Below are positions 38,030-63,991 of a stretch of DNA of 64,000 nt, piece after piece; the first letter of the stretch is position 1, and the number at the start of each line of letters is the position of its first letter. The DNA lies in IMG/VR virus record IMGVR_UViG_3300033121_000493, positions 32,001 to 96,000 of that record; one strand, given 5' to 3'. Below the pieces are notes generated by a model. The model did not search any database, was not told the DNA's origin, and worked only from the letters and a program-made list of their open reading frames with translations. The stretch comes from a virus. Lineage: Duplodnaviria > Caudoviricetes. A program made the position numbers and the translations under genes.

Positions 38030-40834
38030 TTAATAGACACCTTTAGTTTCTAAATCTTTACCAAATGTAGTGCCTTCTGCCAGCGCGTGTCCAAAGTTAG
38101 GTCCGTGTATTTGTGAACTAGATCCACGTCGAGCAGCGTCCATAAATCCTTTGCCTACATAAAATCCTTGAAGGCGCTTGAACCAATCTTTGTCATATAT
38201 GGTTGATTCAAGTGCTCTTGTCATGTACGGTTCAAATGGTGGTGGTTCTGTATGCGCAGTTATAGAATTTACACTGTGCTTATTAAGTGTCTTGGCAACA
38301 CTAGGAGTTATACGCGTACCAATAGAGTAATGTAACACTGGCTGTTCTAAGAACTTACCTACAGACTTATCTGGCTTATCAGTAACACTACCGTGGCGCG
38401 GCTTCCATCGGCTAGCCAGGTCGTCATAGGAAATGATGTCGTCTGGTATTAGATTTTCTCCAGCGTCAAAGTCTGTCACTTTAACGTGGTTTAATAGACC
38501 GCGCGCCATAATCTCTATGTTACGACGGTTTACTTTTATACCACTGTTAGCCAACGTTTCTCTTAGTGTCTTCATAAAGTAACGTCGACCTTCGCCTACG
38601 TGCTTAAAGCGTACTACTTCAGCAGGATTAGCTATACCTGTAGATAAAGCGTCACCAGCCTCTACAGTATCACCGACCTTAACTTTTAATGTTGCCTCTG
38701 GTGGCACGTAATGCTTTTCACCGTCAACTAGTACATAGTTACCGCCCTGCGGCGCTGCCTCTACACTTTCCACTCTACCGTCTTGTGAAGCTAAAGTAGC
38801 AGCCCCAACGAAAGTACTTGGAACACTGACAAGCTGTTCTATAGCTCTAAACCCAGACAGCCCAGTCTCATGCGACGAACCTATAACGCCCGCGCCGTGC
38901 TTAGCGCTATTAGATACTATTAGACCATTGGCCAATACAAACAAATGGTCTTCATGATCTACTTCTATGTCCATCGTGTTAAGTTGGCCGACGTCATGTG
39001 CAAACCAAAATTTTAATGTGTAATCGGCGTGTTTCCCACTTTCATATACAACAACCCGCTGTTTATCTACATCGCCAACTGGCATTACAACGTGATCGTC
39101 TTCATTATTTGATACAAGGATTTTATGATCTTTGGTGGATACAACAGCAATCTCGTGGCCACTGTATTTAGCAAATACAGATTTAATACACGGACGAATC
39201 CCGTTGTTGTACTTGTTCAATACTCTAACTGGGAAAACGTTACCAAACTTGTTAGCTCCCAGCACTAACTCCTGTAACTCTATGTCTTTAAGTTTCTTTA
39301 CAGACCCGTCAGCCATGCGAACTTCAGTATTCTCATCCAAGCATAACTGAGACTGGCTAAGTGGCTCACTTATAGCCTGCGCGGCAGATATACCTACGTT
39401 ATCACCAATCGCACTACGACCTCTATCACGCATTCCTGCAGCTAGTCTAGGCACACCAATCCCACCAGCAGATATAGGAGAATGGATTAGTATCTCGTCG
39501 TTGTCTTTTCTCAACTCTTTAAGTATCGACGGTGTTATTGTCGTACCGGCTTTGAACTTGCCGTAATCTCTGGCTAGCGCAGCTCCAACACTATCGTCAT
39601 CGTCTGTGTCTACTGGCAAACCAGTTCCAGCGCCTGGCTCTTCATCAGTTACTATCAGTCTGGCATTGGCGTTGGCCAAAAGTTTGCCTAGATAACCGGC
39701 ATCGGCAGTCGAGTTTGAAACGATTAAACCGTTCTCCAACACGAATAGATGGTCCTCATTTGCCACTTCTATATCAAAAGTATCAACAGTGCCAACTGCT
39801 ATTTTTTCAATGGCACGCGATGTTTTACGGTACGCTTTTGTATCACGTGTATTATCAAGTAGCTGCGCGACGCAAGCAGAAAAATTGTTCTTGTGTGGGT
39901 TTGCCCAGAATTTTGCACGGCTTAACGGCTGGATACTAAAAGATCTATCCCAGTGTACTGTTTTATTTGCGCGAGTAATACTACAAAGGATTTTATGATC
40001 CTCTGTGCAGATAAGCTCTAGTGTGTTATTTTCGTGTTCTAGCTTGAGCTTTCGTCCGTTTCTGAATTTAAACTTGTAGCACTCACGCGGCCCATTCGCG
40101 AATACTTTAGTAACCAGTGTTGGAAAAGTTTGACCGGCTTTATTTGCCCCTAGCACCCAGTCACCAGGTTGTATGGCTTCAATTGGCTTTACTGTAAAGT
40201 CCGCCATGCGTACTTTGGTACCTACTGAAACGCATCGCTTGGTGGATATGATGCCCTTTCGTGTTCCATAGCTCGTTGCAAAGTATTCAGCAGGAGATAG
40301 CCCCTCTGAATAGTTACTTAAAATAGGAATAGGTATAGGCTTATCGTTATGGTCGGCAACTAACAAATCAGCCGCTCTTAGAGTACTAAGGTTAGCCGCA
40401 CTACCTCTAGCGCCAGATTTGATCGCCATAGCAAAGTTATTGCCTTCGTCGAGACTTTCTTTGTATGTAGCGTCGCGTAAAGGATCTATCTTACTCATCA
40501 GAAAACTGATTAGCTGTTGATTCCTGGTTTTCTCATCTAGCCGCTTGTCAGCAAACAACTTAGATACATGCTCTTTTATTTGCTGAATAATTGGTTCTTT
40601 AGCTTTTGCAGTTTCTAGGTCTTTCAGCGACAGCGATGTACCAGATGAAAACGCTACATCAGCGCCTACCTTAGAAAGATTATGTACTATCTCTTTATAT
40701 TTGTCCGGATAACGCTGCTGCACTTCTCGTAGTACATTCATCATGGTCTTTTTGTCCATGACTCTATCGTAGTCCCGCATGTCTTCGGGAAGTGCTTCAT
40801 TAACCATTAATTTGCCAAGAGTAGTTGTTAACAT
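38030..40834 (-). CDS. rpoC: DNA-directed RNA polymerase beta' subunit, C-terminal part, with two inteins
   Basis: SGARGS; NYSEGLSPAEYF; bridge helix GTRKG..[intein]STADAGYL; trigger loop AAQAISEPLSQSQL[intein]SAKHG; RRNIEIMAR. Confidence 0.92.
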   Translation of the reverse strand: MLTTTLGKLMVNEALPEDMRDYDRVMDKKTMMNVLREVQQRYPDKYKEIVHNLSKVGADVAFSSGTSLSLKDLETAKAKEPIIQQIKEHVSKLFADKRLDEKTRNQQLISFLMSKIDPLRDATYKESLDEGNNFAMAIKSGARGSAANLSTLRAADLLVADHNDKPIPIPILSNYSEGLSPAEYFATSYGTRKGIISTKRCVSVGTKVRMADFTVKPIEAIQPGDWVLGANKAGQTFPTLVTKVFANGPRECYKFKFRNGRKLKLEHENNTLELICTEDHKILCSITRANKTVHWDRSFSIQPLSRAKFWANPHKNNFSACVAQLLDNTRDTKAYRKTSRAIEKIAVGTVDTFDIEVANEDHLFVLENGLIVSNSTADAGYLGKLLANANARLIVTDEEPGAGTGLPVDTDDDDSVGAALARDYGKFKAGTTITPSILKELRKDNDEILIHSPISAGGIGVPRLAAGMRDRGRSAIGDNVGISAAQAISEPLSQSQLCLDENTEVRMADGSVKKLKDIELQELVLGANKFGNVFPVRVLNKYNNGIRPCIKSVFAKYSGHEIAVVSTKDHKILVSNNEDDHVVMPVGDVDKQRVVVYESGKHADYTLKFWFAHDVGQLNTMDIEVDHEDHLFVLANGLIVSNSAKHGAGVIGSSHETGLSGFRAIEQLVSVPSTFVGAATLASQDGRVESVEAAPQGGNYVLVDGEKHYVPPEATLKVKVGDTVEAGDALSTGIANPAEVVRFKHVGEGRRYFMKTLRETLANSGIKVNRRNIEIMARGLLNHVKVTDFDAGENLIPDDIISYDDLASRWKPRHGSVTDKPDKSVGKFLEQPVLHYSIGTRITPSVAKTLNKHSVNSITAHTEPPPFEPYMTRALESTIYDKDWFKRLQGFYVGKGFMDAARRGSSSQIHGPNFGHALAEGTTFGKDLETKGVY
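38909..39343 (-). mobile_element. Mini-intein 2 (145 aa) in the RNAP trigger loop
   Basis: Starts CLDENTEVRMADG; block B STKDHKIL; ends HLFVLANGLIVSN with Ser at +1. Confidence 0.9.
39713..40234 (-). mobile_element. Mini-intein 1 (174 aa) in the RNAP bridge helix
   Basis: Starts CVSVGTKVRMAD; block B CTEDHKIL; ends HLFVLENGLIVSN with Ser at +1. Confidence 0.9.
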
Positions 40835-40835
40835 A

Positions 40836-43978: not shown

Positions 43979-44019
43979 AAAAAAAAGACCCCACACAACA
44001 AATAGTTGTGTAGGGTCTT
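43979..44019 (-). terminator. Rho-independent terminator
   Basis: AAGACCCTACACAAC-TATTT-GTTGTGTGGGGTCTT followed by a T run. Confidence 0.8.
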
Positions 44020-46839: not shown

Positions 46840-47505
46840 TCATAGCATATCTAAATCCTCATAGCTTGGTTTACGTGCCATAGCTATAACATTTACAATT
46901 TGTTGAATCTGATCTAAGTTGTTGTTGGCAACAGCCTGCGTGTACGCACCGAATAACTCTTCAAATATCTTGCTCTTCTGTTTATAGTTTACATGTAAAC
47001 TTACACCGCACTTAAACAAGCCGCCTAGCTTGTTTTGGCGTTCTTTATCTGGTATTTCGCCTACGTCTATGTTACTGATCGTTTCAATCATCAAACGAGG
47101 CCAGTACAGACGTGAAGCACTGTGATCGTTTTGTGTATAAGCTCCTGAAATCTGCGGCAAGGATTTTATCAGTAGCGCATAAAGCCAAAAAGGATTAAAA
47201 CCAATATAAGGACGTAAAACAACGTATTGCTTATAGCAGTGTTTGTGTTCACCGTCAGGCAAAGTATCGACTATGCCAACACCTAAATTTTTATAGTAAA
47301 ATGGCATTGTTAACGAGAGCACGCCGTATACCAACACTGTATCGTTTAATTTGACATCTAATCTCCCACGCTCACGACTGTCCACAGGGTCATTAGTGTA
47401 CTTAAATCCGTACTTATTAAAGTTTTTAAGGCTTATTGTACGCGAAGTGGGATCATCTACACCTGATCCTGATAATAAAAGTTGGTACAAATGGCCTAGT
47501 TTCAT
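46840..47505 (-). CDS. Type I restriction specificity subunit (HsdS)-like, single TRD
   Basis: MKLGHL..LLSG; VKLNDTVLV; GVGIV; YVVLRP...NPFWLYALL; ISNIDVGEIPDKERQNKLG followed by a helix. Confidence 0.55.
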   Translation of the reverse strand: MKLGHLYQLLLSGSGVDDPTSRTISLKNFNKYGFKYTNDPVDSRERGRLDVKLNDTVLVYGVLSLTMPFYYKNLGVGIVDTLPDGEHKHCYKQYVVLRPYIGFNPFWLYALLIKSLPQISGAYTQNDHSASRLYWPRLMIETISNIDVGEIPDKERQNKLGGLFKCGVSLHVNYKQKSKIFEELFGAYTQAVANNNLDQIQQIVNVIAMARKPSYEDLDML

Positions 47506-47684
47506 TTGTCATCAAAAAATAAGAGACGTACAATATTTAATTGTTTAAACACAGTCCAGTGTGTCACGCTACGCACATTAGTTGCAGGGTTGCGTAACTC
47601 CATTGCGTAGTGTAAAGGTCTGTAGAAACCCATTTGACTACAAATATCCTTTCTCAGTTCACTGACAGTGATGTGTCTAGGCAT
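47502..47684 (-). CDS. Small hypothetical protein (array edge)
   Basis: Coupled ORF. Confidence 0.4.
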   Translation of the reverse strand: MPRHITVSELRKDICSQMGFYRPLHYAMELRNPATNVRSVTHWTVFKQLNIVRLLFFDDK

Positions 47685-47921
47685 TTAATAGCAATCTTTT
47701 AACGTCTCAAAAATATATTGTATGTGTGATATGTTGCGTGTACAGCGGCTTAACAAAACAGTATGAATGATTCTGCTATAGGCAAACATACGTTTTAGCC
47801 GTATAATATGGATACTAAAATAAGAACGCGCAAACGACTTAGGATAAATTGAATAATGTAATATATGAGTGAATCGGTGGTGTATGTTAATATGCTTAGA
47901 TTCATGCCATCTACGCGCCAC
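47685..47921 (-). CDS. Small paralog-array protein
   Basis: GGAGG SD; ESKHINI motif. Confidence 0.55.
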   Translation of the reverse strand: MARRWHESKHINIHHRFTHILHYSIYPKSFARSYFSIHIIRLKRMFAYSRIIHTVLLSRCTRNISHIQYIFETLKDCY

Positions 47922-47949
47922 GTTACCTCCTAAGATTAAACCTGGCTAG

Positions 47950-48834: not shown

Positions 48835-48835
48835 A

Positions 48836-49498: not shown

Positions 49499-49501
49499 GC
49501 T

Positions 49502-50185: not shown

Positions 50186-50187
50186 AC

Positions 50188-50261: not shown

Positions 50262-50265
50262 TTAG

Positions 50266-50340: not shown

Positions 50341-50368
50341 ATATCGAAGCACAATACAGCACATGTTG

Positions 50369-51595: not shown

Positions 51596-51599
51596 AGGT

Positions 51600-52547: not shown

Positions 52548-52581
52548 TCGACATCTCCGTGTGGCGCGTTGTAGAAATTTA

Positions 52582-53979: not shown

Positions 53980-54202
53980 TTGCGTTATTAACTATAGTTA
54001 ATATATTCCACGCCGCTAAGCTATGGCCGTCGCCATCAAACCCATGAGCTAGCGAACACGATATAATCCACACATGTTTATTGCGGATTACTAATACAAC
54101 ACCAGTATTAGGCTCTTCAGTCCAGTTATCTCGTACCGCCGCTCGTATTTCTAAAGTATTAGCTGCGCAGCTCGTCAATAGCACTCCCGTTTCTAAACTC
54201 AT
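53927..54202 (-). CDS. Small hypothetical array protein
   Basis: Coupled ORF. Confidence 0.45.
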   Translation of the reverse strand: MSLETGVLLTSCAANTLEIRAAVRDNWTEEPNTGVVLVIRNKHVWIISCSLAHGFDGDGHSLAAWNILTIVNNASACIVSVCAGILHCASR

Positions 54203-54419
54203 ACCTCAAATAGTCTATTAGTCGTATGACTAGCCGCCTGTAGCCGCTATATACATTTATCGAAACATCGCTAAATATAAAATTTGTTGGATAGTAGGCT
54301 ATAGCGTACACGACGCCAGTAGTTTGCCAATACCAAGTATGTATTGGGCTAACACTATCACCGATTCTTTGATATCGTACGCGGAATTGAACTGTTAACG
54401 ATTTACTATGCACGGCCAC
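54159..54419 (-). CDS. Small paralog-array protein
   Basis: SKSLTVQF. Confidence 0.55.
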   Translation of the reverse strand: MAVHSKSLTVQFRVRYQRIGDSVSPIHTWYWQTTGVVYAIAYYPTNFIFSDVSINVYSGYRRLVIRLIDYLRYEFRNGSAIDELRS

Positions 54420-54706
54420 ACTACGGTTGTATAGATAGCTTTTAGGACATTTAGCAACAATAAATATTGATTATGCCATTGCCGGTCAGCTGCGATCTGT
54501 ATATTTGTTTGCCGGTACCAGTTAGATTTCAAAATCGGATTTACGTCTACCAAAATGTCATAATTTTTATTAACTGTTATAAACAATAACACGCGCATAT
54601 ACGGGCAAAAACCAAACACAACTACGCGCGACTTTCTCAATGTGACCAGCCCCGTCTCGTACCAGTATAGACGTCTTCCATAACCCGTAATTCTTGCCAA
54701 CGCCAC
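54395..54706 (-). CDS. Small paralog-array protein
   Basis: RKSRVVVF; true start probably ~54640. Confidence 0.5.
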   Translation of the reverse strand: MALARITGYGRRLYWYETGLVTLRKSRVVVFGFCPYMRVLLFITVNKNYDILVDVNPILKSNWYRQTNIQIAADRQWHNQYLLLLNVLKAIYTTVVWPCIVNR

Positions 54707-54873
54707 TCTTGCTTATCAATTGTAAACTGTACCCACCTGGACATATACAAAGTAAACACTTTAACTGGAGTTGCACGTGTCCTAACGGTACCATCCACAT
54801 TAGTTACTTTAATCATATCAACAGCATAATTATATCCATTAAGTTCAAATACGATTGGCTGTGATTTTACCAA
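54637..54873 (-). CDS. Small paralog-array protein
   Basis: KSQPIVF. Confidence 0.55.
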   Translation of the reverse strand: MVKSQPIVFELNGYNYAVDMIKVTNVDGTVRTRATPVKVFTLYMSRWVQFTIDKQEWRWQELRVMEDVYTGTRRGWSH

Positions 54874-55118
54874 TTTAACACTACGCTATCATGCGCACGA
54901 GTCATACAGTCATTAAGCAAATTTCTACTAGCTACGAACCATTGGAAACTAAGCACCCGGTAATATACTGATACGTCATCTACGACGAGTATTGGCTTAA
55001 AGCTCAGCTCACAGTATTCATCGCTTAGTTCGCTGTACTGACCAACTTTTAGGATAACTCTGTGTACAGGCTTAAAAACAACCAGCGGTACAAATATTAC
55101 GCTGAGTGACTTATTCAT
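54867..55118 (-). CDS. Small paralog-array protein
   Basis: NKSLSVIF; AAGGA SD. Confidence 0.6.
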   Translation of the reverse strand: MNKSLSVIFVPLVVFKPVHRVILKVGQYSELSDEYCELSFKPILVVDDVSVYYRVLSFQWFVASRNLLNDCMTRAHDSVVLNW

Positions 55119-55121
55119 TCC

Positions 55122-55349
55122 TTATCGTTTTCTATTAAACGATATACGATTTACACCACGCCGCACCAGGCGCTTAGCCAGCCAACGCATAGACGCAGCG
55201 CACATGTCCACAAAGAAAAATAGTGTGGCGCAGTTAAACACGAATGACGTAAAACCAGAGTAGGACAGCACGTACGACGCTAGAAAAAAACCAAGGCCTA
55301 GCACAACAAGCGCGGTTACATACTCACAGTCATGCATTTGCGGCTCCAT
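55122..55349 (-). CDS. Small membrane protein
   Basis: Two hydrophobic stretches and a basic tail. Confidence 0.5.
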   Translation of the reverse strand: MEPQMHDCEYVTALVVLGLGFFLASYVLSYSGFTSFVFNCATLFFFVDMCAASMRWLAKRLVRRGVNRISFNRKR

Positions 55350-55557
55350 AGACGGGGCAAGCTACGCCGGTTGCAATAGCTAAGGATAAACGATGAAACA
55401 AAGCCAAAGGAAACATAGGTAAATTGCAAAAACACGGCTTAAGTAGAGCGTATGTATAGTTAAAGCGAAATACGCGGGCATAGCTACAAGAATGACGTCC
55501 GGAGGCGTCACCCCAGCGTAAGCTAAACGTTACGTCGAGAGATTTATCTACCGGCAT
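55330..55557 (-). CDS. Small paralog-array protein
   Basis: DKSLDVTF. Confidence 0.55.
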   Translation of the reverse strand: MPVDKSLDVTFSLRWGDASGRHSCSYARVFRFNYTYALLKPCFCNLPMFPLALFHRLSLAIATGVACPVYGAANA

Positions 55558-55802
55558 AACGAGATGCGCAATAGCCTAAGCCATGTTTTATTCTCTACAA
55601 TGAAATAAGGCGATCCTCTTACGACAATCTTCATATCAAACATGCTAAGACTTACTGTATTAAGTAAACACACTAGGTATCTATGGTCACTCCCATGAAA
55701 TGGGTAACCTGTTTTAGAAATTGTCGACGGGGAGGCGCGGTGCACATTAGGTATATCAAACTTAATCTCTTTACTGTGCATCTGACAGGCTGTCTGATTC
55801 AA
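55548..55802 (-). CDS. Small paralog-array protein
   Basis: HSKEIKF. Confidence 0.55.
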   Translation of the reverse strand: MNQTACQMHSKEIKFDIPNVHRASPSTISKTGYPFHGSDHRYLVCLLNTVSLSMFDMKIVVRGSPYFIVENKTWLRLLRISLCR

Positions 55803-56043
55803 TAAAAGATCTACAAAGTTTTTTCACTGTAATAACAACTACATAATACACACGGCGCGTGACCAATGTAAAACTAGCAAAAAGCGAGCCCATAGACACT
55901 TTCTCCCAGAGTAAATGGTAACCACCGCTTACAACTGCACTACGGAATTTAGAATTAGACATCAAACACTCCGGCAGCCATGCATTTTTCACGAAGTATT
56001 TTATACTGACTATATATTGTGTTTTCAACGCGCGCTTGAACAT
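55771..56043 (-). CDS. Small hypothetical array protein
   Basis: True start probably MSNSKF. Confidence 0.45.
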   Translation of the reverse strand: MFKRALKTQYIVSIKYFVKNAWLPECLMSNSKFRSAVVSGGYHLLWEKVSMGSLFASFTLVTRRVYYVVVITVKKLCRSFIESDSLSDAQ

Positions 56044-56215
56044 GGTGTCTTGTGATGTAAACTCTGTCTGGCGCGTGTATATCGCACAGATTTAACGGTA
56101 AAATTCGCCAAGTGTTAGAAAAAACTAGACCGTCAGGTACTACTAGCATGGTTTGCAATTCGTGTAGTTTTAGATCAAACCGTAGAGAGAACCCAACACC
56201 ACAGCACTTAGGCAT
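55955..56215 (-). CDS. Small paralog-array protein
   Basis: KCCGVGFSLR, compare KSLDVTFSLR. Confidence 0.55.
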   Translation of the reverse strand: MPKCCGVGFSLRFDLKLHELQTMLVVPDGLVFSNTWRILPLNLCDIHAPDRVYITRHHVQARVENTIYSQYKILREKCMAAGVFDV

Positions 56216-56437
56216 TTATCCCATACCATTCGTCATGTGCCATAAAATATTATGACACTCGTCAAATAATGATATAAGGTTACGGGTCACAATGTTTAAG
56301 CGAATAGTGCTGTACGTAAGAACCTTTACATCAATCCAGAAGCTGCCAGTGCGTGGATCAGGATCACACGCTACTGCAGCGCCAACATATGAATACCCAA
56401 GGACGATGTATATCTCTTGATTACAAAACTTAGCCAT
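56216..56437 (-). CDS. Small paralog-array protein (QEI subfamily)
   Basis: Recent duplicate of 56430..56648. Confidence 0.7.
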   Translation of the reverse strand: MAKFCNQEIYIVLGYSYVGAAVACDPDPRTGSFWIDVKVLTYSTIRLNIVTRNLISLFDECHNILWHMTNGMG

Positions 56438-56648
56438 TCGTCATGCGCCATAAAATATTATGACACTCGTCAAATAATGGTCTATAGTTACGGGTCACAA
56501 TGTTTAAGCGAATAGCGTTGTACGGAAGAACCCTTACATCAATCCAAAGGACGCCAGTGCGTGGATCAGGACCGCATACTACTCCAGCACGGCCAACATA
56601 TGAATACGCAAGGACGGCGTATATCTCTTGACTATAAAACCTAGCCAT
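56430..56648 (-). CDS. Small paralog-array protein (QEI subfamily)
   Basis: YSQEIYAV...WIDV...MTNG. Confidence 0.7.
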   Translation of the reverse strand: MARFYSQEIYAVLAYSYVGRAGVVCGPDPRTGVLWIDVRVLPYNAIRLNIVTRNYRPLFDECHNILWRMTNG

Positions 56649-56850
56649 TCGTCATAAACCGTATAGCGGCGTTACACTTACGGACTACTAGACTATTGTT
56701 ACGGTCCGCAATGTCTAAGCGGGCAGAGAAACAATAAGACTTAAATAAACGCACATCAATCCATAGGCAGCCAATGTCCGGCGTGCAGCCAAAGTCCACT
56801 GTAGCATCATTAGAGCCTATAACGGTAATGGCTATCTCTTGACTCTTAAT
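56641..56850 (-). CDS. Small paralog-array protein (QEI subfamily), ATT start, not in ORF track
   Basis: GGAG-N6-ATT AAG AGT CAA GAG ATA; ...LWIDVR...RLDIADRN...MTNG. Confidence 0.6.
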   Translation of the reverse strand: MKSQEIAITVIGSNDATVDFGCTPDIGCLWIDVRLFKSYCFSARLDIADRNNSLVVRKCNAAIRFMTNG

Positions 56851-57106
56851 GAGCTTCTCCTAACGACTTTGTCAATAGGCGAATATAGCGTCCAAGTGTC
56901 CTGGTAATAGGCGAAAATTCATTAAAAGCCCAATCCCAGTCAAACATATTATTTGCGCGTATACAGTTCCGTACAATATGAAATATGCCTAATGAACAGT
57001 CATCCCACGAATATACGCTACCATTAAACCCCAAACCACCACCATGCTGAGTATATGTGGCACCGCCAACGTTAAGCATAATTTCACAACTGGTAAATGA
57101 TGGCAA
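56846..57106 (-). CDS. Small paralog-array protein
   Basis: FTSCEIML. Confidence 0.55.
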   Translation of the reverse strand: MPSFTSCEIMLNVGGATYTQHGGGLGFNGSVYSWDDCSLGIFHIVRNCIRANNMFDWDWAFNEFSPITRTLGRYIRLLTKSLGEAH

Positions 57107-57326
57107 TCAGCCTCCTAGCTGCCATTCTAGCGAGTGGAATTACATCTCTATACGTGTGTGGAGTAATATTCATACCAAATCTAATATCTAACGTGCGAAC
57201 TATAGGCCTTACGTCAATGATGTATAGACTATCGTCGTAAGAGGCTGTCGCTAATGACAATACGCGCGGCGCTGTAATCGTAGGGTACAGCGTACATGTA
57301 ACCTCACACGACTTAAAATTTGTCAC
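57084..57326 (-). CDS. Small paralog-array protein
   Basis: FKSCEVTC...YIIDVR. Confidence 0.55.
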   Translation of the reverse strand: MTNFKSCEVTCTLYPTITAPRVLSLATASYDDSLYIIDVRPIVRTLDIRFGMNITPHTYRDVIPLARMAARRLIAIIYQL

Positions 57327-57543
57327 TAATCTGCTTCCACACGTCTATGAAAACACTACTACAAGTATCTACGTTATCCGGTCGTATGAATCTTGTTTGT
57401 AAATCACTCCAACAAACAAGCTCTAGCTGTACAAAGTAACTATCGATATAGTAACCGCGCCAGGTGTGTACTACTCGCACCCATCGTTCTGTAGAAGCAT
57501 ATAGCCGCCGTACGGCGATATCACGACTAGACCCGTCAGCCAT
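57313..57543 (-). CDS. Small paralog-array protein
   Basis: SSRDIAV. Confidence 0.55.
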   Translation of the reverse strand: MADGSSRDIAVRRLYASTERWVRVVHTWRGYYIDSYFVQLELVCWSDLQTRFIRPDNVDTCSSVFIDVWKQISDKF

Positions 57544-57847
57544 ATAGCTGTCCAGTATTACGGAATTGGATACGACAAGCGGCAGAAGACATATGTGCTG
57601 CTATTGCCCTACCATAAAAATCGGCAAACAAATTACTAAACGCTATACATTGTAACGAGACAAGTAGTGCCGGTGGCGCTGTACGGTAGATGTCAACAAT
57701 CGGTGGCCGTATAGTACAATCATCCTCTGGCTCTGATACTAACATTTGTATTCGTAGCACAAGGCTACAAAATTTATTTCCAGCGTCTGGTTGCACCCAC
57801 CAAGCCCCAAAAAAGGATTCGATCAAGAATACTACGAAAGCTTGCAC
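57536..57847 (-). CDS. Small hypothetical array protein
   Basis: True start probably internal (near KFCSLVLRI). Confidence 0.4.
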   Translation of the reverse strand: MQAFVVFLIESFFGAWWVQPDAGNKFCSLVLRIQMLVSEPEDDCTIRPPIVDIYRTAPPALLVSLQCIAFSNLFADFYGRAIAAHMSSAACRIQFRNTGQLYG

Positions 57848-57992
57848 TCAGTGGTGCGTTGTCAAACAAATCACTTCTAGTCATATACTCCATAGCTATA
57901 TACATTCTTTCTTCGTTGTCGTGACTGCGATCACGCTTTACAAAAAAACTATTATTAGCGGCCCTAACAGCGTAACTGCGGCATTTATGCAT
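57774..57992 (-). CDS. Small paralog-array protein
   Basis: KCRSYAV. Confidence 0.5.
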   Translation of the reverse strand: MHKCRSYAVRAANNSFFVKRDRSHDNEERMYIAMEYMTRSDLFDNAPLSASFRSILDRILFWGLVGATRRWK

Positions 57993-58221
57993 AAAGTTTA
58001 AGCCACATAGCCTTTGTTACCCTGCCACACAACATAGTAACAGTAGGCGTTATCGCCTCGGGTAGATCTTCATCAAAGAAGACATCGACGACTGTGCGCC
58101 GTCCTATTAAAATGGTCTTTGTGGCAAAAGGATGTGCCTGCCAAAGAGCAACTGCGGGCTGATCAATACGGTGTACTTCCAGTATCAATGCAGTAACGTC
58201 ACAACTAGGGTTAAAGCTCAA
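57985..58221 (-). CDS. Small paralog-array protein
   Basis: PSCDVTAL; GGGGAG SD. Confidence 0.55.
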   Translation of the reverse strand: MSFNPSCDVTALILEVHRIDQPAVALWQAHPFATKTILIGRRTVVDVFFDEDLPEAITPTVTMLCGRVTKAMWLKLYA

Positions 58222-58430
58222 GGCTCCCCTCGTATATGCGTCTCAATATGATACATAGTGAGTTCTCGGTGCGGATAGGACGGTTGTTAATTAGAGATCT
58301 TGGGGATGGTACACAATAAACCACACAGAACACGCCTAGTATCAAGGTTTTGTGTTCGTATTTGTATACGCCTACAGTATCGTCAGAGGCGAAGCCTGAT
58401 CTAGTATATATTGCGACGCCGTGTTAACAT
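58211..58430 (-). pseudogene. Degraded array member
   Basis: Open frame HGVAIYTRSG...ILRRIYEGSLEL* preceded by an in-frame TAA; the nearest ATG is out of frame. Confidence 0.45.
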
Positions 58431-58682
58431 TCTTTTTAGTAAAATCTCTATCATATATTCTGTCATAGTCAGGAGGTGTGGGACTGGTCGCCACTTAGAA
58501 TTTGAAACGCATATTTCAATTGCCACATACTTGAAATCCATATTCACGTAAAAATAGCACTGGCGTCTATTACGCTCTGCGCCGTCATTTTTGTATATGA
58601 GGTCGTGGTATACGTCTACACATAAACTAGTTTTACGAGCTCTGCGGCTGCGCAAATAGTCTTCCAGTGTTTTCGTCGCCGT
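58401..58682 (-). CDS. Array protein (extended subfamily), probable ACG start
   Basis: GGGAG-N6-ACG GCG ACG AAA; TKTLEDYL...KTSLCVDV. Confidence 0.5.
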   Translation of the reverse strand, partial: TATKTLEDYLRSRRARKTSLCVDVYHDLIYKNDGAERNRRQCYFYVNMDFKYVAIEICVSNSKWRPVPHLLTMTEYMIEILLKRMLTRRRNIY

Positions 58683-58708
58683 ATTGTTCTCCCGGCTGCA
58701 GCAGGTGC

Positions 58709-58975
58709 TTAGCGGTGAGGCCGTAAAGTCACGTACGCACAATCACATACTTTACTAGCTACACGTCCTACGGCAATCATAACATTTAATGAGGCGATGG
58801 GTTTCAAAAGAAAACCACCGCGTAGATGATTCATTTTAATTACTACATTATCTCTAGTTGCTTGTGCGTAAGTAAAATACGCACCACGAACCATCTCCCG
58901 CCACTCAGCTGTGCTAACAGTACGCCAATCGACTGGAAAAACAATATCAACGCCTACGCTACGTTCATAGCACAA
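58709..58975 (-). CDS. Small paralog-array protein
   Basis: RSVGVDI. Confidence 0.5.
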   Translation of the reverse strand: MCYERSVGVDIVFPVDWRTVSTAEWREMVRGAYFTYAQATRDNVVIKMNHLRGGFLLKPIASLNVMIAVGRVASKVCDCAYVTLRPHR

Positions 58976-58981
58976 AAGGGT

Positions 58982-59269
58982 TTAGTCCTTTGATAGGATA
59001 CACCGCTTTACACTGTCTAGTACAGCACGCTCAGGCTGCAGCGACTCAATCAGATAGTTGCGTACAATTTCGCGAAATAGCGTAAAGCGATTGGGTATGT
59101 CTATAGCTGTTATTTCAATATAAAAAATAGCATTCAGTGGGGTGAGATGCACCGCTGTTGTAGTCACCGAGGTAACACAACGTACTCTATGTATATAGAC
59201 AGGTGTTGCTTTTTCAAACGGTCGTTTAGATAAATATGCACGTAGTCTTTTTATACTAGTCATCGGCAA
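58982..59269 (-). CDS. Array protein (extended subfamily)
   Basis: IKRLRAYL...YIEITAI. Confidence 0.55.
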   Translation of the reverse strand: MPMTSIKRLRAYLSKRPFEKATPVYIHRVRCVTSVTTTAVHLTPLNAIFYIEITAIDIPNRFTLFREIVRNYLIESLQPERAVLDSVKRCILSKD

Positions 59270-59532
59270 CTAAGAAAATTGTTTAAACAATAGTCTGTGC
59301 TATCTAATACCGCGATACACCGCCTTCTTATCAAGTGGTTAATTTGCCGCAAATAACTAGGCCTTGTGCCGCCACCTACACAACAATGTAGTCTAATCGT
59401 TATTTCGCCAAACACGCTTACGTCTCCGATGCATGCTGTAGCCGGATATGGTAGCCACGCGCTGTATACCACGTCTATTGGACCAACTTTTCTAGGTGTA
59501 GATAAAAAATTTTTTAGTTGCGGTGTTTGCAT
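59260..59532 (-). CDS. Array protein (MQT subfamily)
   Basis: MQTPQLK; TGATG coupling. Confidence 0.6.
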   Translation of the reverse strand: MQTPQLKNFLSTPRKVGPIDVVYSAWLPYPATACIGDVSVFGEITIRLHCCVGGGTRPSYLRQINHLIRRRCIAVLDSTDYCLNNFLSCR

Positions 59533-59807
59533 CAATTTCTTTTTGGCTGTTTTAAGCACTGTAAAGCAGATTTTGCTACATCAGCACATACAGAGCGTAG
59601 CCTATTTGTAATCCGCCGCGCGACGCTAACCCTGACAAAGTTGACACCCGTCCAGCGTAGCTTGATTACGAACACTTGTCGAAGCATATATACGCGCGTA
59701 GAACTAGTGTCCGCATAAGTTATGGAATTGTTTAATTCTTGCGAAGCACTTATTTCGATAGACTCTCTGTGCACAGGCTGAAAAGATTTTAATGCTGGTG
59801 ATTGCAT
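59532..59807 (-). CDS. Array protein (MQT subfamily)
   Basis: MQSPALK; TGATG coupling. Confidence 0.6.
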   Translation of the reverse strand: MQSPALKSFQPVHRESIEISASQELNNSITYADTSSTRVYMLRQVFVIKLRWTGVNFVRVSVARRITNRLRSVCADVAKSALQCLKQPKRN

Positions 59808-60088
59808 CAATCGTGTCTGTAGTCCCGCAAACATCGATACATACTTTCTATTATGTCTCCGCATAAATTATGTATGTAACGTGTATATGAAACCGTCGAC
59901 GAATAGTAGTAATCGTTTATGCAGTATAACGTAATTTCTATCCTGGTATTATACGGGTCTATAGTACCGACGCATCCATTATTTTTGCATTCTCGTAACG
60001 TCGGACGAACAGTATAGGCGATGTCTATCACTAACGATTTTTTCCACTGCGGATTAGACATATAGCGCTTTAATGCCAGCGTTTGCAT
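59807..60088 (-). CDS. Array protein (MQT subfamily)
   Basis: MQTLALKRY...WKKSLVIDI...IEITLYC. Confidence 0.6.
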   Translation of the reverse strand: MQTLALKRYMSNPQWKKSLVIDIAYTVRPTLRECKNNGCVGTIDPYNTRIEITLYCINDYYYSSTVSYTRYIHNLCGDIIESMYRCLRDYRHD

Positions 60089-60096
60089 TACTCTTC

Positions 60097-60360
60097 TTAC
60101 AACTCGTAGAAGTCGGGGTCTATACGTTTTACTAAATTTCGGCACCAAGTGCGTAAAGTACTCATAGCCTGTCGATTCCTGGACCGTAAAATGTAACGAT
60201 CCAAACAGTATAGCTTAATTATTAATCTACTGCTACGAAATCCGTCTATATCGCCAATACACGAAAACCGAATATCCCTACGCGCAGACTCGCAGATAAC
60301 CTGTATATCCCAAGACTTTTTGCCATTAGCCCTGTAGTATTTTAATTCTGGTGTCTGCGT
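60097..60360 (-). CDS. First array member, overlapping the RNAP 3' end, ACG start (not in ORF track)
   Basis: GGAG-N6-ACG CAG ACA CCA GAA TTA AAA, i.e. (M)QTPELKYY..GKKSWDIQV...LIIKLYC. Confidence 0.55.
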   Translation of the reverse strand, partial: TQTPELKYYRANGKKSWDIQVICESARRDIRFSCIGDIDGFRSSRLIIKLYCLDRYILRSRNRQAMSTLRTWCRNLVKRIDPDFYEL

Positions 60361-63300
60361 TTATTTCTCCACGTCTGAACGCCGCTATAGCGTCCGCTTT
60401 GGTAGCAAATGTTTTTGCTTCATGTGCGCTTTGATCGTGAGTAGCCCTAAATAGCCCGTGCAAAAATTCCTGGATAGGTGCATAGTGCACGTCAAAATTT
60501 CTAGCACTGAGTAAATTAGCGCTAGGCATAAGCTTACGCTTAGCTTCACTGACAGCTTCATCACTGACAGGCACGTGGAACTGCATTCTGTCACCGTCGA
60601 AATCAGCGCCGTAGCCACTGACGATTGTAGGGCTTAGCTGCATGGTTTGCGTTTTAGCCAACACAGGCCACGCAGCCATTATTCCGAACTTGTGTAGCGT
60701 AGGAGCTCGGTTGATGAGTACCGGACGCACTTTCATTTCTTCAATCAAAGCGTCCTTAGCAATTCTATCTTTGTTGGCAACCATATTAACAGCCTGTACG
60801 GCAGGAGTACCCCGTCTGACCAACGACCTAATGATAAATGGTCGGTATAGAGTCCATGCTTTCTCTTCTGGCAAACCTACTTGATCCATGTCTAGCGACG
60901 GGTTTGGCGTAATAACAGCGCTACCGACCATGTCAGTTGTGCTGCCTATGATCTTACGCTGAAACACTGAAAACTTTGGCGACGACCGCAGTCCTAGCGC
61001 ATGCGACAAAATGCCTTTTATGTTCTTCTCTTGTAACTTTGGCTGCAGCGGATCTGACAATCCGACCAGTGCCTTGAACGAGCTGTACAACGCTAAACGC
61101 TCGTCACCTGCGGCTTCGTGGCCTAACGTATCTGTTACGTCCTTTACGTTGTTGTTAGCACGTATGATCTCTTTGTACAAGTAGTTAGGGTCACTAACTA
61201 TTGTCATACCTTTAGGCCCAGTTGCGATAGGCCGATACTGAGGCGGCATAATAGGTACTTTAGTCAGCATCAGCTCTTCTGGCTTAATGCCTGTTTTCTT
61301 TAGCATTGTAAAAACGCGCAACCGCTTAATAGCGTCGTCGCGGTTTGTTTTTGATCCATTAGTGACTAGATCTTTTAGTCGATCAATCTCGCTGTGTACG
61401 TTGAGAGACTGTAGCGCGCTACGCAATGCTTCCGGCCCTGTCTTTTCTTTAAGCATGCGTTTACCGGCTATAACATCTTCCAACTGACCTTCAGTAAGCC
61501 CCAGCACTTTACGGATAGAATCTTCGAAAACAGGATTTGGTAATGGGTGATTAAGATTAACGTGCGTAAACCCTGTCCCTTCAGGACCACCAGTTAAACC
61601 TATATCAAACAACCCACCACTTATCGGCTTCATCGTATCGAAATCAAGAGTATCGTCGCTCTTGACTTCGCCTCTAGACATCTTGTCTATGTCTTTATCA
61701 GTCAAAGCCATGATGTTTACGAAGTTACCGGTCTTGCTAACATTGATGCCAGCAGACCTTAAATCGTCCATAAACTTCTTGTACACGAATGGTGCTTCTG
61801 GTGTTGGCGGCGGATACCCCAAACGAAACGCACGCCAGAAATCGTCATTTCGCTGCCCGCGTATGAGCTTAGCATCACGCAGTACTTCAGTAGCACCAGC
61901 AGACAATAATGACATTGTCTCTAGCCCACCTATACGCTTGGCAGAGCCTTCACCACCTTTAGCAGGAACTTTGTCAATAGTGTATGAACCGTCGTCTGCA
62001 CGAGCGTCGGCTTTGTCTTCTGCAGTATGGTGTAGTTTCATCCAGTACTGCACGCCAGACAACACATTATTCACATTAGCGTTTCTATTTGGATCAAATA
62101 GAGTTTCAGTATCCTTTATGCCGTATTTCTTTAGCTCGTCCTGTACAGTCTTTAGATTACTTCCATCTTGGAAAGACGGTACAACATATTTTTTACCTAA
62201 CTTAGCTGCTACCTTACCAAGCGCGAGCTCAAGTATGGCCGCAGGGTTAGATCGAGAGATAGTACCAAACGGATGGATTAGCAACTCTAGCGGATTTTTA
62301 TCACTATCGTGCGGCATTTGATCATCAGGTACTATTGATGAAATAACACCTTTACCGCCGAAGCGCATCGTTAGCTTATCACCAACCACACATGGTCGGT
62401 ACGCTTTTACGATAACGTTTACATCTTTTGGTCCGGCATGTACATCTGTAACTATTCCGTCGTCATCGTATTCCCACACGTGCGACGAATCCATAAATCT
62501 AGCTTTGCTACTGCGCGTTAATACGCCTTGACCCTTAGCAGATTTTTCAGAAATACTAAGAATCAGGGGATCACCCTTCTTCACAACAGTTCCTGGTTTG
62601 ATTAAACCGTTGTCTGTAAAGTTCGCTAGCTGAGCTTTATTGTACGTTGTAGGAAACGCGCTGATAAATGCATTCCTACTAACTTTCTGCCCAGGCTCAA
62701 TGTCCATTGAATGCTGGTACATATGCTCAGACGCCATTTTCTTAGCGGCGCTCTCGCTAACAACAATGGCATCTTCTACGGTAAGACCTTTGAACGGTAA
62801 GTAAGCAGTGCGTAAATTTTTGCCTAACGCCAACTCACCTTCGTCATTTGTGAAATTTGTTTTAGCCAGTAACTGGCCAGGTTTGACATAGTCACCTGGC
62901 TTTACCATAGGTGTATTGTTTACAAACCCACGTCGATTATACGGAAAATTATCGTACAGTTCGTAGCGTTTAATGCCGTTGGGAGTTTTGATACTGATGC
63001 TATCTTTATCCAACTTAGTAACTATTCCAGTTGCATCAGATCTGACTATGCCAGTTTTGCTGCCTAAGAATCTTTCAAAAGAATCATTAGGCTCACCAGA
63101 TGGCCTGCTTGTCTGAACAAACGGTGCTTCGCCGTCTTTGATCGCTAGAGCTTGCGTTGCCATTCTGGCTACCATGTTAGTTCTGTGGCCCTTGATGGAC
63201 GACAGAAACGGCACAAGGTGCGCCAACGTAGACATCATGTGCTCTGGATGCGGGAGCTCGTAGTCAACTTTGCTTGGATCTACGTACTTAATGCGACCGC

Positions 63301-63991
63301 GTACTAATGCTTGTGCCGGTCTATTCTCAGCTATAGCTTTTTTCAACTCACCTGGAAAAGCAATAACGGATCTAGTCGCATCCGTAGATGGTACAAAGAT
63401 CTTTTTGCCGGTCTTATCCAAAAACTGTGAGTACAGTTTACCGTCACTACCACGGTGAACGTTGTACGCAGTTCTATTGTCTACACCGGCTTTCTCAGAT
63501 TCTGCTGTACGAACTACGTCGATGAAACCCATATACGAAGGCTGCACGGCACGTGACTCGTCAGGAATAGCGTCTGTATCTGGAATACCACCATAGCCAA
63601 GTCGAGACACACGCTGCAACTGATCATAGATGTCTAGAGGATTTGATTCCTCCAGCGGCATACCAAGACCGGAACTAAGCAGAACAGATTCCAATTGTTT
63701 GTTACGTTGCTGGTGATTAAGTATAGGATTAAGTGACCTGGCGTATGTAGCTTTCCACAGAGCTCGTCTAGCCACACCACCAACGTCAGCTTTAATACGC
63801 TCAGCCAGCATCTCTGCCGGACCAATCACCTTCTGATACGAGATGTTGTCACGGTCATCTGTATCCATTTCACCTTTACGAATCTTCAGCAACTTATGTG
63901 TAGCGGCCAGTATTGCCTGCGGGCTAACCGTATCGAAGCGTGTACCAAGAGTTTCCTCTGTAATATTGGGGTCTAGCTTCATAGCAGCCAT
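60326..63991 (-). CDS. rpoBC: DNA-directed RNA polymerase beta-beta'(N-terminal) fusion; frame open at the window edge, so probably 5'-partial
   Basis: Beta motifs DDRDN, EDAIVVSE, GDKLTMRFGGKGV, MKLHH, GSAKRIGGLE; beta' motifs GGLFD, PPQYRP, NRAPTLH and catalytic GADFDGD. Confidence 0.93.
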   Translation of the reverse strand: MAAMKLDPNITEETLGTRFDTVSPQAILAATHKLLKIRKGEMDTDDRDNISYQKVIGPAEMLAERIKADVGGVARRALWKATYARSLNPILNHQQRNKQLESVLLSSGLGMPLEESNPLDIYDQLQRVSRLGYGGIPDTDAIPDESRAVQPSYMGFIDVVRTAESEKAGVDNRTAYNVHRGSDGKLYSQFLDKTGKKIFVPSTDATRSVIAFPGELKKAIAENRPAQALVRGRIKYVDPSKVDYELPHPEHMMSTLAHLVPFLSSIKGHRTNMVARMATQALAIKDGEAPFVQTSRPSGEPNDSFERFLGSKTGIVRSDATGIVTKLDKDSISIKTPNGIKRYELYDNFPYNRRGFVNNTPMVKPGDYVKPGQLLAKTNFTNDEGELALGKNLRTAYLPFKGLTVEDAIVVSESAAKKMASEHMYQHSMDIEPGQKVSRNAFISAFPTTYNKAQLANFTDNGLIKPGTVVKKGDPLILSISEKSAKGQGVLTRSSKARFMDSSHVWEYDDDGIVTDVHAGPKDVNVIVKAYRPCVVGDKLTMRFGGKGVISSIVPDDQMPHDSDKNPLELLIHPFGTISRSNPAAILELALGKVAAKLGKKYVVPSFQDGSNLKTVQDELKKYGIKDTETLFDPNRNANVNNVLSGVQYWMKLHHTAEDKADARADDGSYTIDKVPAKGGEGSAKRIGGLETMSLLSAGATEVLRDAKLIRGQRNDDFWRAFRLGYPPPTPEAPFVYKKFMDDLRSAGINVSKTGNFVNIMALTDKDIDKMSRGEVKSDDTLDFDTMKPISGGLFDIGLTGGPEGTGFTHVNLNHPLPNPVFEDSIRKVLGLTEGQLEDVIAGKRMLKEKTGPEALRSALQSLNVHSEIDRLKDLVTNGSKTNRDDAIKRLRVFTMLKKTGIKPEELMLTKVPIMPPQYRPIATGPKGMTIVSDPNYLYKEIIRANNNVKDVTDTLGHEAAGDERLALYSSFKALVGLSDPLQPKLQEKNIKGILSHALGLRSSPKFSVFQRKIIGSTTDMVGSAVITPNPSLDMDQVGLPEEKAWTLYRPFIIRSLVRRGTPAVQAVNMVANKDRIAKDALIEEMKVRPVLINRAPTLHKFGIMAAWPVLAKTQTMQLSPTIVSGYGADFDGDRMQFHVPVSDEAVSEAKRKLMPSANLLSARNFDVHYAPIQEFLHGLFRATHDQSAHEAKTFATKADAIAAFRRGEINADTRIKILQG

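What the first reader, a model, noticed from the sequence alone, without database searches (positions are those of the whole stretch)
38030..63991. Re-partitioned multisubunit RNA polymerase: beta fused to beta'-N, with beta'-C encoded ~19.5 kb away
Seen: one ORF runs from beta motifs straight into beta' through the catalytic DFDGD and stops shortly after. The remainder of beta' (funnel, bridge helix, trigger loop, jaw) is a separate gene at the start of the head module. Established: cyanobacteria split beta' at a similar point and Helicobacter/Wolbachia fuse beta-beta'; here both occur together in a phage, with easily recognisable bacterial-like motifs. Inference: the halves may be expressed at different times, gating assembly. 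No alpha or omega subunit is seen in the window.
Basis: partly seen in the sequence, partly recalled or inferred. Interest (0 to 1): 0.75.

Follow-up and report, generated by a model that had tools for sequence, protein, structure and literature searches.

The report
Fused-and-split phage RNA polymerase with inteins
This uncultured 203-kb wastewater phage encodes its only RNA polymerase as two proteins (all of beta joined to the front of beta-prime, and the back of beta-prime made separately and interrupted by two self-splicing inteins); hundreds of phages share the layout, but I found no paper that describes it.

Summary
One minus-strand ORF joins a complete beta to beta-prime through GADFDGD and stops 87 residues later. 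It runs off the window: the true gene is about 1463 aa, ending at window-equivalent 64717. The rest of beta-prime is a 934-aa gene at 38030-40834, 19.5 kb downstream.

One (174 aa) sits in the bridge helix and one (145 aa) in the trigger loop. The spliced product would be 615 aa.

The layout is not peculiar to this phage. Salmonella phage Arash, Vibrio phage D69 and at least 462 protein clusters share the fusion junction. The 19.5-kb distance is peculiar: relatives have 0.6-4.8 kb. Here the gap holds an expanded array of small genes, so timed expression of the halves has no support.

The genome has one polymerase set and no alpha or omega detectable by Pfam models. It has one sigma-like gene (7646-8428), and a complex model docks that protein on the clamp helices.

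Best reading: a two-chain, sigma-dependent, alpha-less enzyme, probably carried in the virion. Earlier reports of this scan found the same family on other DNA. I found no paper describing it.

The parts
61712..64000 (-). Beta part of the fusion gene (residues ~30-1031 of the 1492-codon ORF). It continues beyond the window to about window-equivalent 64717 (GTG) or 64804 (TTG). It is a complete beta that lacks the E. coli lineage inserts SI1 and SI2. The catalytic lysines are K810 and K818.
60326..61711 (-). Beta'-N part of the same ORF (residues 1032-1492 plus the stop). It is joined to the end of beta by about 8 residues. The zinc ribbon (E. coli C70-C88) is deleted. The clamp helices lie at about 61079-61204 and GADFDGD at 60590-60610. 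The chain ends at E. coli beta' ~553.
38030..40834 (-). Beta'-C precursor gene, 934 aa (P0001): funnel, bridge helix, trigger loop and C-terminal part. It would be 615 aa after removal of both inteins.
39713..40234 (-). Mini-intein 1 (174 aa, residues 201-374), inserted in the bridge helix between the equivalents of E. coli beta' L788 and K789. It has Cys1, TEDH (block B) and ends ...IVSN, followed by Ser+1. It has no endonuclease domain.
38909..39343 (-). Mini-intein 2 (145 aa, residues 498-642), inserted in the trigger loop between the equivalents of E. coli beta' M932 and R933. It has Cys1, TKDH and ends ...IVSN, followed by Ser+1. It is 33% identical to intein 1.
7646..8428 (-). Sigma-70-family-like gene. 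The ORF is 260 aa, but the family mode is ~233 aa, so the real start is probably near 8350. It is the only copy in the genome and is the homologue of Arash gp10.
47502..60325 (-). Filler between the two polymerase genes: an array of about 45 small co-oriented ORFs plus tRNA-Val and tRNA-Pro. Relatives lack it at this size. It is not part of the enzyme.
43985..44019 (-). The only strong intrinsic-terminator-like hairpin between the two genes (15-bp stem followed by a T run).

Best explanation
The phage encodes one bacterial-type, double-psi-beta-barrel RNA polymerase whose catalytic core consists of two polypeptides.

Chain 1 (~1463 aa) is a complete beta joined almost directly to beta' residues ~23-553. 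It carries the clamp helices and the Mg-binding GADFDGD, and it lacks the beta' zinc ribbon.

Chain 2 is the rest of beta'. It is translated as a 934-aa precursor. To rebuild a continuous bridge helix and trigger loop (615 aa), it must excise two class-1 mini-inteins. Until then the enzyme cannot be active. This step is inferred.

The core probably assembles without alpha or omega, with the covalent beta-beta' link replacing the alpha-dimer assembly platform. This is also inferred.

The core is probably directed to promoters by the phage's own sigma-like protein, docked on the clamp helices. A model supports this; binding has not been shown.

By analogy with phage Arash, enzyme and sigma are probably made late, packed into the virion and injected to start transcription. 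This too is inferred.

The 19.5-kb spacing of the two genes is an accident of gene-array expansion, not a regulatory device.
For: Domain content and alignments to solved bacterial beta and beta' support the two-chain core.

Conserved catalytic features: K810/K818, D1401/D1403/D1405, and the equivalent of H936 in ...SAKHGAG.

The junction and the zinc-ribbon deletion are conserved in Arash and in metagenomic relatives. The junction is spanned in one stretch by all of the top 150 representatives, among 462 clusters with E<=1e-30.

Intein-free homologues of beta'C are 608-633 aa. Removing residues 201-374 and 498-642 gives 615 aa.

Intein signatures pass the curated cut-offs. The same C...SN|S signature recurs at the same two sites in dozens of homologues.

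The genome holds a single polymerase set, with no alpha or omega by Pfam, and one sigma-like gene.

Complex model of beta'-N 1033-1492 with the sigma-like protein: ipSAE 0.80 against a best control of 0.00. That mark was reached by 58 of 80 solved complexes and 2 of 110 mismatched pairs. The three runs share at least 66% of their contacts, and the partner's pLDDT is at least 70. The interface is fusion residues 1201-1242 (clamp helices) against sigma-like residues 66-81 (region-2-like). This resembles solved holoenzymes, so the pass may only reflect that likeness.

Arash gp206, gp216 and sigma gp10 are among the most abundant proteins in virion mass spectrometry, with 3516, 1210 and 467 spectra (PMC10585845).

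Both polymerase genes lie between the portal and the prohead protease and major capsid genes, on the same strand.
Against: No biochemistry exists for any member of the family.

The Arash virion preparation also contained ribonucleotide reductases and ligases, so carry-over of abundant proteins is possible.

Absence of alpha and omega rests on Pfam models only. A diverged or host-supplied subunit is not excluded.

The penultimate intein residue is Ser, not the usual His, and splicing has not been shown.

The sigma-like protein lacks a Pfam Sigma70_r2 hit and lacks the two tryptophans used for -10 melting.

I found no shared promoter motif.
Confidence: 0.68

Rival explanations
1. One reading: the two halves are transcribed at different times, and the late arrival of beta'-C gates assembly of the enzyme.
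For: In this genome 19.5 kb lie between the genes, and a strong terminator-like hairpin at 43985-44019 lies between them. Beta'-C lies just upstream of head genes.
Against: In relatives the genes are 0.64-4.8 kb apart, and co-oriented in three of the four cases examined. In this phage all genes of the region share one strand. The fusion gene itself lies downstream of the portal gene, inside the virion gene region. RNA-library contigs cannot show timing.
Confidence: 0.08
2. Hybrid enzyme: the phage core recruits host alpha (and omega), as a bacterial core does. The fusion and the split would then be neutral rearrangements.
For: The core is bacterial in type, and the genome encodes no alpha or omega.
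Against: A virion-carried enzyme would have to work before or without host subunits. Identity to cellular beta and beta' is only about 25-30%, far below the NCBIfam equivalog cut-offs. This makes conserved alpha-docking surfaces doubtful, though I did not test them.
Confidence: 0.17
3. Decaying gene: the endonuclease-less inteins with Ser-Asn ends no longer splice, so beta'-C is dead and the phage relies on the host polymerase.
For: Both inteins are mini-inteins without a homing endonuclease and lack the penultimate His.
Against: Both reading frames are intact. Cys1, TxxH, the terminal Asn and Ser+1 are all kept. The same Ser-Asn end occurs in almost all of the ~140 inteins resolved in the family. 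All catalytic residues of the polymerase are kept. It is the only beta'-C gene in the genome.
Confidence: 0.04
4. Assembly artefact: the fusion, the split or the long gap is a chimeric contig.
For: The genome is a metagenomic assembly, and the public contigs that could be laid on it are short.
Against: The same fusion and split occur in sequenced isolates and in hundreds of independent assemblies. Independent sludge (2018) and river (2024) DNA runs cover every bin of 40500-60400 at mostly 99% identity or more, with no conflicting long-range joints.
Confidence: 0.02

Closest known systems
RNA polymerase genes of Salmonella phage Arash (gp206, 1525 aa; gp216, 606 aa; sigma gp10; OQ632216, PMC10585845) and of Vibrio phages D69, D181 and D148
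   Same: Same layout: beta joined to beta'-N in one gene, beta'-C in a second gene, a sigma-like gene in the virion module, and the same junction and zinc-ribbon deletion. Identities are 31% (fusion), 24-25% (beta'-C) and 28% (sigma).
   Different: In those phages the two genes are 0.64-4.8 kb apart, and beta'-C carries no intein. Here the gap is 19.5 kb and beta'-C carries two inteins. The Arash paper calls the proteins beta and beta' and does not mention the fusion. The D69 genes are annotated as hypothetical.
Cyanobacterial and plastid split beta' (rpoC1 gamma plus rpoC2 beta')
   Same: Beta' is broken in the same surface region between the pore and funnel domains. The break here is about 20-40 residues upstream of the cyanobacterial one.
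   Different: In cyanobacteria beta is a separate protein, alpha and omega are present, and the trigger loop carries the large SI3 insert. None of this holds here. Scores lie far below the equivalog cut-offs (183 against 976 bits; 70 against 467 bits).
Helicobacter/Wolbachia-type rpoBC fusion (NCBIfam PRK09603, PRK14844)
   Same: The C-terminus of beta is joined to the N-terminus of beta' in one chain.
   Different: Those fusions carry the whole of beta' (about 2,850-2,900 aa) and work with alpha and omega. Here the chain stops at beta' ~553 and scores 357 against a cut-off of 5372 bits.
Multisubunit-RNAP-encoding Caudovirales, 'mReC' (Weinheimer & Aylward 2020, PMC7481178)
   Same: Tailed phages with readily alignable, bacterial-like beta and beta'.
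   Different: mReC phages have separate, mostly adjacent beta (1009-1563 aa) and beta' (903-1038 aa) genes, with NADxDGD required in the beta' protein. They have a gp23-type capsid protein (PF07068) and a PF03237 terminase. Here the capsid protein has no Pfam hit and the terminase is PF05876. The paper mentions no such fusion, split or intein.
phiKZ/AR9-type virion and non-virion multisubunit RNA polymerases
   Same: Phage-encoded multisubunit enzymes without alpha or omega. One of them is virion-packed.
   Different: Those phages have two enzyme sets, each of 4-5 highly diverged split subunits, and no sigma factor (PMC7824862). Here there is one set, two chains, bacterial-like sequence and a sigma-like protein.
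Class-1 inteins in catalytic RNA polymerase subunits (from memory, unchecked here: the Methanocaldococcus jannaschii RpoA' and RpoA'' inteins)
   Same: HINT-fold self-splicing elements inserted in the most conserved catalytic segments of the largest subunit.
   Different: Here they sit in a phage enzyme. Two related copies lie in one gene. They have a Ser-Asn rather than a His-Asn end, and they belong to a family-wide hotspot with at least five sites within ~130 residues.

Membership tests
Bacterial-type multisubunit RNA polymerase core (beta/beta') | Beta double-psi barrel with the two catalytic lysines (E. coli K1065, K1073) | tested here: met
   K810 and K818 align to them and are invariant in 61 homologues
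Bacterial-type multisubunit RNA polymerase core (beta/beta') | Beta' NADFDGD metal-binding loop, bridge helix and trigger loop with the catalytic His | tested here: met
   GADFDGD at 1399-1405. [quoted passage not shown]
Bacterial-type multisubunit RNA polymerase core (beta/beta') | Alpha dimer and omega subunits | tested here: not met
   PF01000, PF01193 and PF01192 find nothing in the whole genome at E<=1, while the controls ring in 14 of 14 genomes. Host-supplied subunits cannot be tested here
Bacterial-type multisubunit RNA polymerase core (beta/beta') | Beta' N-terminal zinc ribbon (C70, C72, C85, C88) | tested here: not met
   It is deleted here, in Arash and in the metagenomic relatives aligned
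Bacterial-type multisubunit RNA polymerase core (beta/beta') | Score above the NCBIfam rpoB/rpoC equivalog cut-offs | tested here: not met
   285 against 896 bits (rpoB); 228 and 174 against 963.5 bits (rpoC)
Arash-like fused-and-split phage RNA polymerase (unnamed family) | Beta joined to beta'-N in one protein of ~1460 aa, with the junction spanned in one stretch | tested here: met
Arash-like fused-and-split phage RNA polymerase (unnamed family) | Separate beta'-C of ~610 aa once inteins are removed | tested here: met
   615 aa after removal; intein-free homologues are 608-633 aa
Arash-like fused-and-split phage RNA polymerase (unnamed family) | Cognate sigma-like protein of ~233 aa | tested here: met
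   Window 7646-8428, 28% identical to Arash gp10. Sigma70_r3 scores 26.9 bits against a cut-off of 25.3. 51 homologues were found
Arash-like fused-and-split phage RNA polymerase (unnamed family) | Enzyme present in the virion | not testable with these tools
   Only the Arash mass-spectrometry data and the gene position among virion genes bear on this
Cyanobacterial split beta' (gamma plus beta') | Break at the rpoC1/rpoC2 boundary, with beta as a separate protein | tested here: not met
   The break is about 20-40 residues upstream of the cyanobacterial one, and beta is fused
rpoBC full fusion (Helicobacter/Wolbachia type) | Whole beta and whole beta' in one chain | tested here: not met
   The chain stops at E. 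coli beta' ~553; it scores 357 against 5372 bits
mReC (Weinheimer & Aylward 2020) | Separate beta and beta' genes; gp23-type capsid protein (PF07068); PF03237 terminase | tested here: not met
   The subunits are fused and split here. The capsid protein has no Pfam hit and the terminase is PF05876
Class-1 intein (HINT) | Cys/Ser at position 1, TxxH in block B, C-terminal Asn, and Cys/Ser/Thr at +1 | tested here: met
   Both inteins have C1, TEDH or TKDH...SN and S+1. Hom_end_hint scores 42.1 bits against a cut-off of 32.1; intein_Cterm scores 34.5 against 15.6, each with two stretches
Class-1 intein (HINT) | Penultimate His in block G | tested here: not met
   It is Ser in both, as in nearly all inteins of this polymerase family
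Class-1 intein (HINT) | Actual protein splicing | not testable with these tools
   Needs expression of the precursor

The most novel reading that the evidence does not exclude
The two inteins are more than parasites. [quoted passage not shown] The polymerase would stay inert while it is made and packed, and would mature only under the right conditions.
Probability: 0.06. Interest if true: 0.85.

Novelty: new variant of a known kind. Interest (0 to 1): 0.62.

Why it matters
If the two-chain enzyme works with only its own sigma-like factor, it would be the simplest sigma-dependent bacterial-type RNA polymerase known. It would show that a covalent beta-beta' link can replace the alpha-dimer assembly platform.

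It would also be a third kind of phage multisubunit polymerase, beside the phiKZ type and the crAss/YonO type, and much closer to the cellular enzyme than either. It is widespread (at least 462 clusters at 50% identity) and present in culturable phages (Arash, D69), so it is open to experiment.

Its rifampicin pocket is diverged (D516E, H526Q equivalents). Infection may therefore be insensitive to rifampicin.

Tried and rejected
Promoter motif. I compared k-mer enrichment in 76 crude intergenic stretches of the genome with the whole genome. Only a weak GTGGTTTA signal appeared (6 of its 12 genomic copies) and no convincing promoter. The sigma-70 consensus scan of 37000-48000 gave 24 sites against 17 +/- 4.3 expected.

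Sigma region 2. PF04542 finds nothing in the genome. phmmer of the sigma-like protein against PDB also finds nothing. Its sigma nature rests on region 3, NCBIfam RpoD C-terminal hits, PHROG 351 and the family alignment.

The conserved 764-aa neighbour (35446-37740). It has no Pfam or PHROG hit and no usable Atlas hit. Its role is unknown.

T7-type polymerase (PF00940). Nothing was found, but the control genomes did not ring either, so the result is uninformative.

RNA-library contigs. They cover the whole 40500-60400 stretch, but contigs cannot show transcription, strand or timing, so I draw no conclusion on expression.

Literature. Six full-text searches, and a reading of the mReC paper, two jumbo-phage reviews and the Arash paper, found no description of the fusion, the split or these inteins. 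I could trace that only to the Arash annotation.

No phylogeny against cellular, mReC and phiKZ enzymes was built.

Full report
WHERE THE WINDOW LIES. The window is bases 32001-96000 of a 202,582-bp virus record that CheckV rates complete. Almost all genes lie on the minus strand (277 of 302 crude calls). tblastn with proteins of Salmonella phage Arash finds distant homologues of its large terminase, portal, prohead protease (gp222), major capsid protein, sigma factor gp10 and both polymerase proteins, at 24-39% identity. The phage is therefore a distant relative of Arash.

THE FUSION GENE. The minus-strand ORF ending at 60326 is open at the window's edge. In the genome it extends to window-equivalent 64804, giving 1492 codons from a TTG.
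- There is no ATG in the first 120 codons. A GTG at codon 30 follows GGAG and gives 1463 aa, which is the modal length of more than 70 homologues.
- Pfam finds Rpb2 domain 6 (E 4e-49) and weaker Rpb2 domains 2 and 3. The same chain then carries Rpb1 domains 1 and 2.
- phmmer against PDB aligns residues ~60-1055 with bacterial beta (for example cyanobacterial beta 39-1057) and residues 1118-1489 with E. coli beta' 176-550.
- An alignment with E. coli rpoB and rpoC, Arash gp206 and eight metagenomic homologues places the end of beta (LRSAGINV, against E. coli IRSLGINIELEDE) about eight residues before beta' residue ~23.
- The beta' zinc ribbon (C70-C88) is missing in every family member shown. 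The E. coli beta inserts SI1 and SI2 are absent.
- K810 and K818 match the catalytic lysines. GADFDGD is at 1399-1405. The chain ends at RIKILQG, equal to E. coli beta' 547-553.
- The rifampicin pocket is diverged (D516E, H526Q equivalents).

THE SECOND GENE AND ITS INTEINS. The ORF 38030-40834 (934 aa) starts at the equivalent of E. coli beta' ~572. It carries the funnel, bridge helix, trigger loop and C-terminal domains. Pfam also reports a Hint domain with two stretches, and NCBIfam reports two intein C-terminal regions above cut-off.
- The sequence shows two insertions. Residues 201-374 are CVSVGT...LIVSN followed by S. Residues 498-642 are CLDENT...LIVSN followed by S.
- The first interrupts GTRKGIISTKR|STADAGYLGKLL, between the L788 and K789 equivalents in the middle of the bridge helix.
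- The second interrupts AAQAISEPLSQSQL|SAKHGAG, between the M932 and R933 equivalents, four residues before the catalytic His of the trigger loop.
- Both have Cys1, a TxxH block B, a terminal Asn and Ser+1. Both have Ser rather than His before the Asn, and neither has an endonuclease domain.
- They are 33% identical to each other (E 9e-23), so they are related but not recent copies.
- Removing them leaves 615 aa. Arash gp216 is 606 aa, and twelve close homologues are 608-633 aa.

THE FAMILY.
- The 120 best homologues of the fusion protein (45-69% identity) all carry beta and beta' domains in one chain. Most are ~1460 aa; the rest are longer through inserts.
- A 201-aa query spanning only the junction finds 462 clusters (50% identity level) at E<=1e-30 and 997 at E<=1e-10. 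All of the top 150 match it in one stretch.
- Of the 120 best beta'-C homologues, 12 have no insert, 57 have one, 45 have two and 6 have three.
- Resolved boundaries fall at recurrent sites: two in the bridge helix (after consensus positions 199 and 207), one in AAQAV|SEP, and two or three in the trigger loop (after 323/324 and 327). Almost all show C...SN|S. Sizes are either ~135-230 aa, or ~375-400 aa with a LAGLIDADG domain.
- The two inteins of this phage sit at the two commonest sites, 199 and 323.
- The fusion protein is also invaded in relatives, at a dozen or more sites including just after DFDGD. It carries non-intein inserts near consensus position 240-260. The copy in this window is free of them.

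SPACING OF THE TWO GENES. The stop of the fusion gene and the start of beta'-C are 19,491 bases apart. In Vibrio phage D69 the gap is 0.64 kb, in two metagenomic relatives 2.1 and 2.8 kb, and in Arash 4.8 kb.
- The local order is kept: a small gene, then beta'-C, then a small gene, then a protein of ~760 aa.
- Here a 72-aa ORF ends one base before the beta'-C start codon.
- The extra distance is filled by about 45 small co-oriented ORFs, two tRNA genes and a few larger genes, one of them in a GC-rich island.
- One strong terminator-like hairpin lies at 43985-44019.
- Independent DNA runs from sludge (2018) and river water (2024) cover all bins of 40500-60400 at mostly 99% identity or more, with no conflicting long joints, though only as short contigs.
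- The long gap is therefore real but lineage-specific, and it gives no ground for a timing mechanism.

OTHER SUBUNITS. Pfam models of the alpha N-terminal domain and of omega find nothing in the genome, while their controls ring in 14 of 14 genomes. Beta and beta' models each find only the genes described.
- The homologue of Arash gp10 lies at 7646-8428. It passes the Sigma70_r3 cut-off narrowly (26.9 against 25.3 bits), hits PHROG 351, and hits the RpoD C-terminal and SigK/SigE models weakly. It has 51 homologues of ~233 aa, some with Sigma70_r4.
- Their alignment shows a region-2.1/2.2-like segment (RAKxLAAxAFxxYDPxxGxKLRTHLMTQLQPL) but not the tryptophan pair used for -10 melting.
- It is the only copy in the genome.
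- A complex model of fusion residues 1033-1492 with this protein scored 0.80 (runs 0.82, 0.80, 0.79) against 0.00 for the best of three controls. That mark was reached by 58 of 80 solved complexes and 2 of 110 mismatched pairs. The runs agree in at least 66% of contacts, and the partner's pLDDT is at least 70.
- The confident contacts join the clamp helices (1201-1242) to residues 66-81 of the sigma-like protein. This is the classical sigma-2/clamp-helix contact, so the pass may reflect likeness to solved holoenzymes. It supports binding but does not show it.

VIRION ASSOCIATION. In the Arash paper, gp206 is the protein with most spectra in virion preparations (3516). gp216 has 1210 and sigma gp10 has 467, against 1333 for the major capsid protein. 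The authors also found reductases and ligases and considered carry-over (PMC10585845).
- Here both polymerase genes lie between the portal gene and the prohead protease and capsid genes. The sigma-like gene lies further down the same virion-gene block.
- Packaging is thus a reasonable inference, not a result.

COMPARISON WITH WHAT IS KNOWN.
- Cyanobacterial beta' break: it lies about 20-40 residues downstream of this one.
- Helicobacter-type fusions: they carry the whole of beta'.
- mReC phages of Weinheimer and Aylward: they have separate beta and beta' genes and different capsid and terminase families.
- phiKZ-type enzymes: they are far more diverged, come in two sets and lack sigma.
- Literature: none of the papers I searched or read describes this layout or these inteins.
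- This scan: earlier reports found the same family on other genomes and named the same closest relatives. My tests agree with them. What this window adds is an intein-free fusion gene, two related mini-inteins at the two hottest beta'-C sites, and an unusually long gap.

VERDICT. The enzyme is a new variant of a known kind. It is well established at the sequence level and untested biochemically.

Noticed in passing
window 50188-50340 (-): tRNA-Val(TAC) and tRNA-Pro(TGG) lie side by side in the middle of the small-ORF array. They explain a depth spike and many loose ends in the public runs laid on the stretch.
   Followed up: partly
window 44001-46000; gene 44837-46165 (-): A GC-rich island (55% against ~44% elsewhere) contains a 442-aa DUF6745 protein (E 1e-19). 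It looks like a recent acquisition within the gap between the polymerase genes.
   Followed up: no
window 35446-37740 (-): A 764-aa protein follows beta'-C after one small gene. The same order, with a 758-759-aa protein, is kept in two distant relatives. It has no Pfam, PHROG or Atlas hit. It could be a polymerase partner or a head protein.
   Followed up: partly
Homologues of the fusion protein (e.g. P0026, P0037, P0046, P0082): Some relatives carry non-intein domain inserts (GNAT acetyltransferase, SET domain, PF22547) at one variable spot of beta near consensus position 240-260. Inteins occur at a dozen or more other sites, one directly after DFDGD.
   Followed up: partly
L013 (Vibrio phage D181, OZ196140) 4317-5265: In D181 and D148 the fusion gene is cut in two by a ~950-base insert that encodes a homing endonuclease. 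D69 has the uninterrupted gene. This is probably a self-splicing intron.
   Followed up: no
L003:5613-6707 (-) and L011:13220-14815 (-), upstream of the fusion gene outside the window: A radical SAM protein lies just upstream of the fusion gene. A 531-aa protein with a 2'-5' RNA ligase-superfamily domain lies between it and the portal gene.
   Followed up: no
window 62300-63700 (beta rifampicin region, residues ~374-445): The rifampicin-binding pocket is strongly diverged (D516E and H526Q equivalents). The enzyme may be insensitive to rifampicin.
   Followed up: no
phages collection hits H5-H19: Several records named as Listeria, Staphylococcus, Enterococcus, Acinetobacter or Salmonella 'phage' hold ordinary adjacent rpoB and rpoC genes. 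They look like bacterial DNA filed as phage.
   Followed up: no
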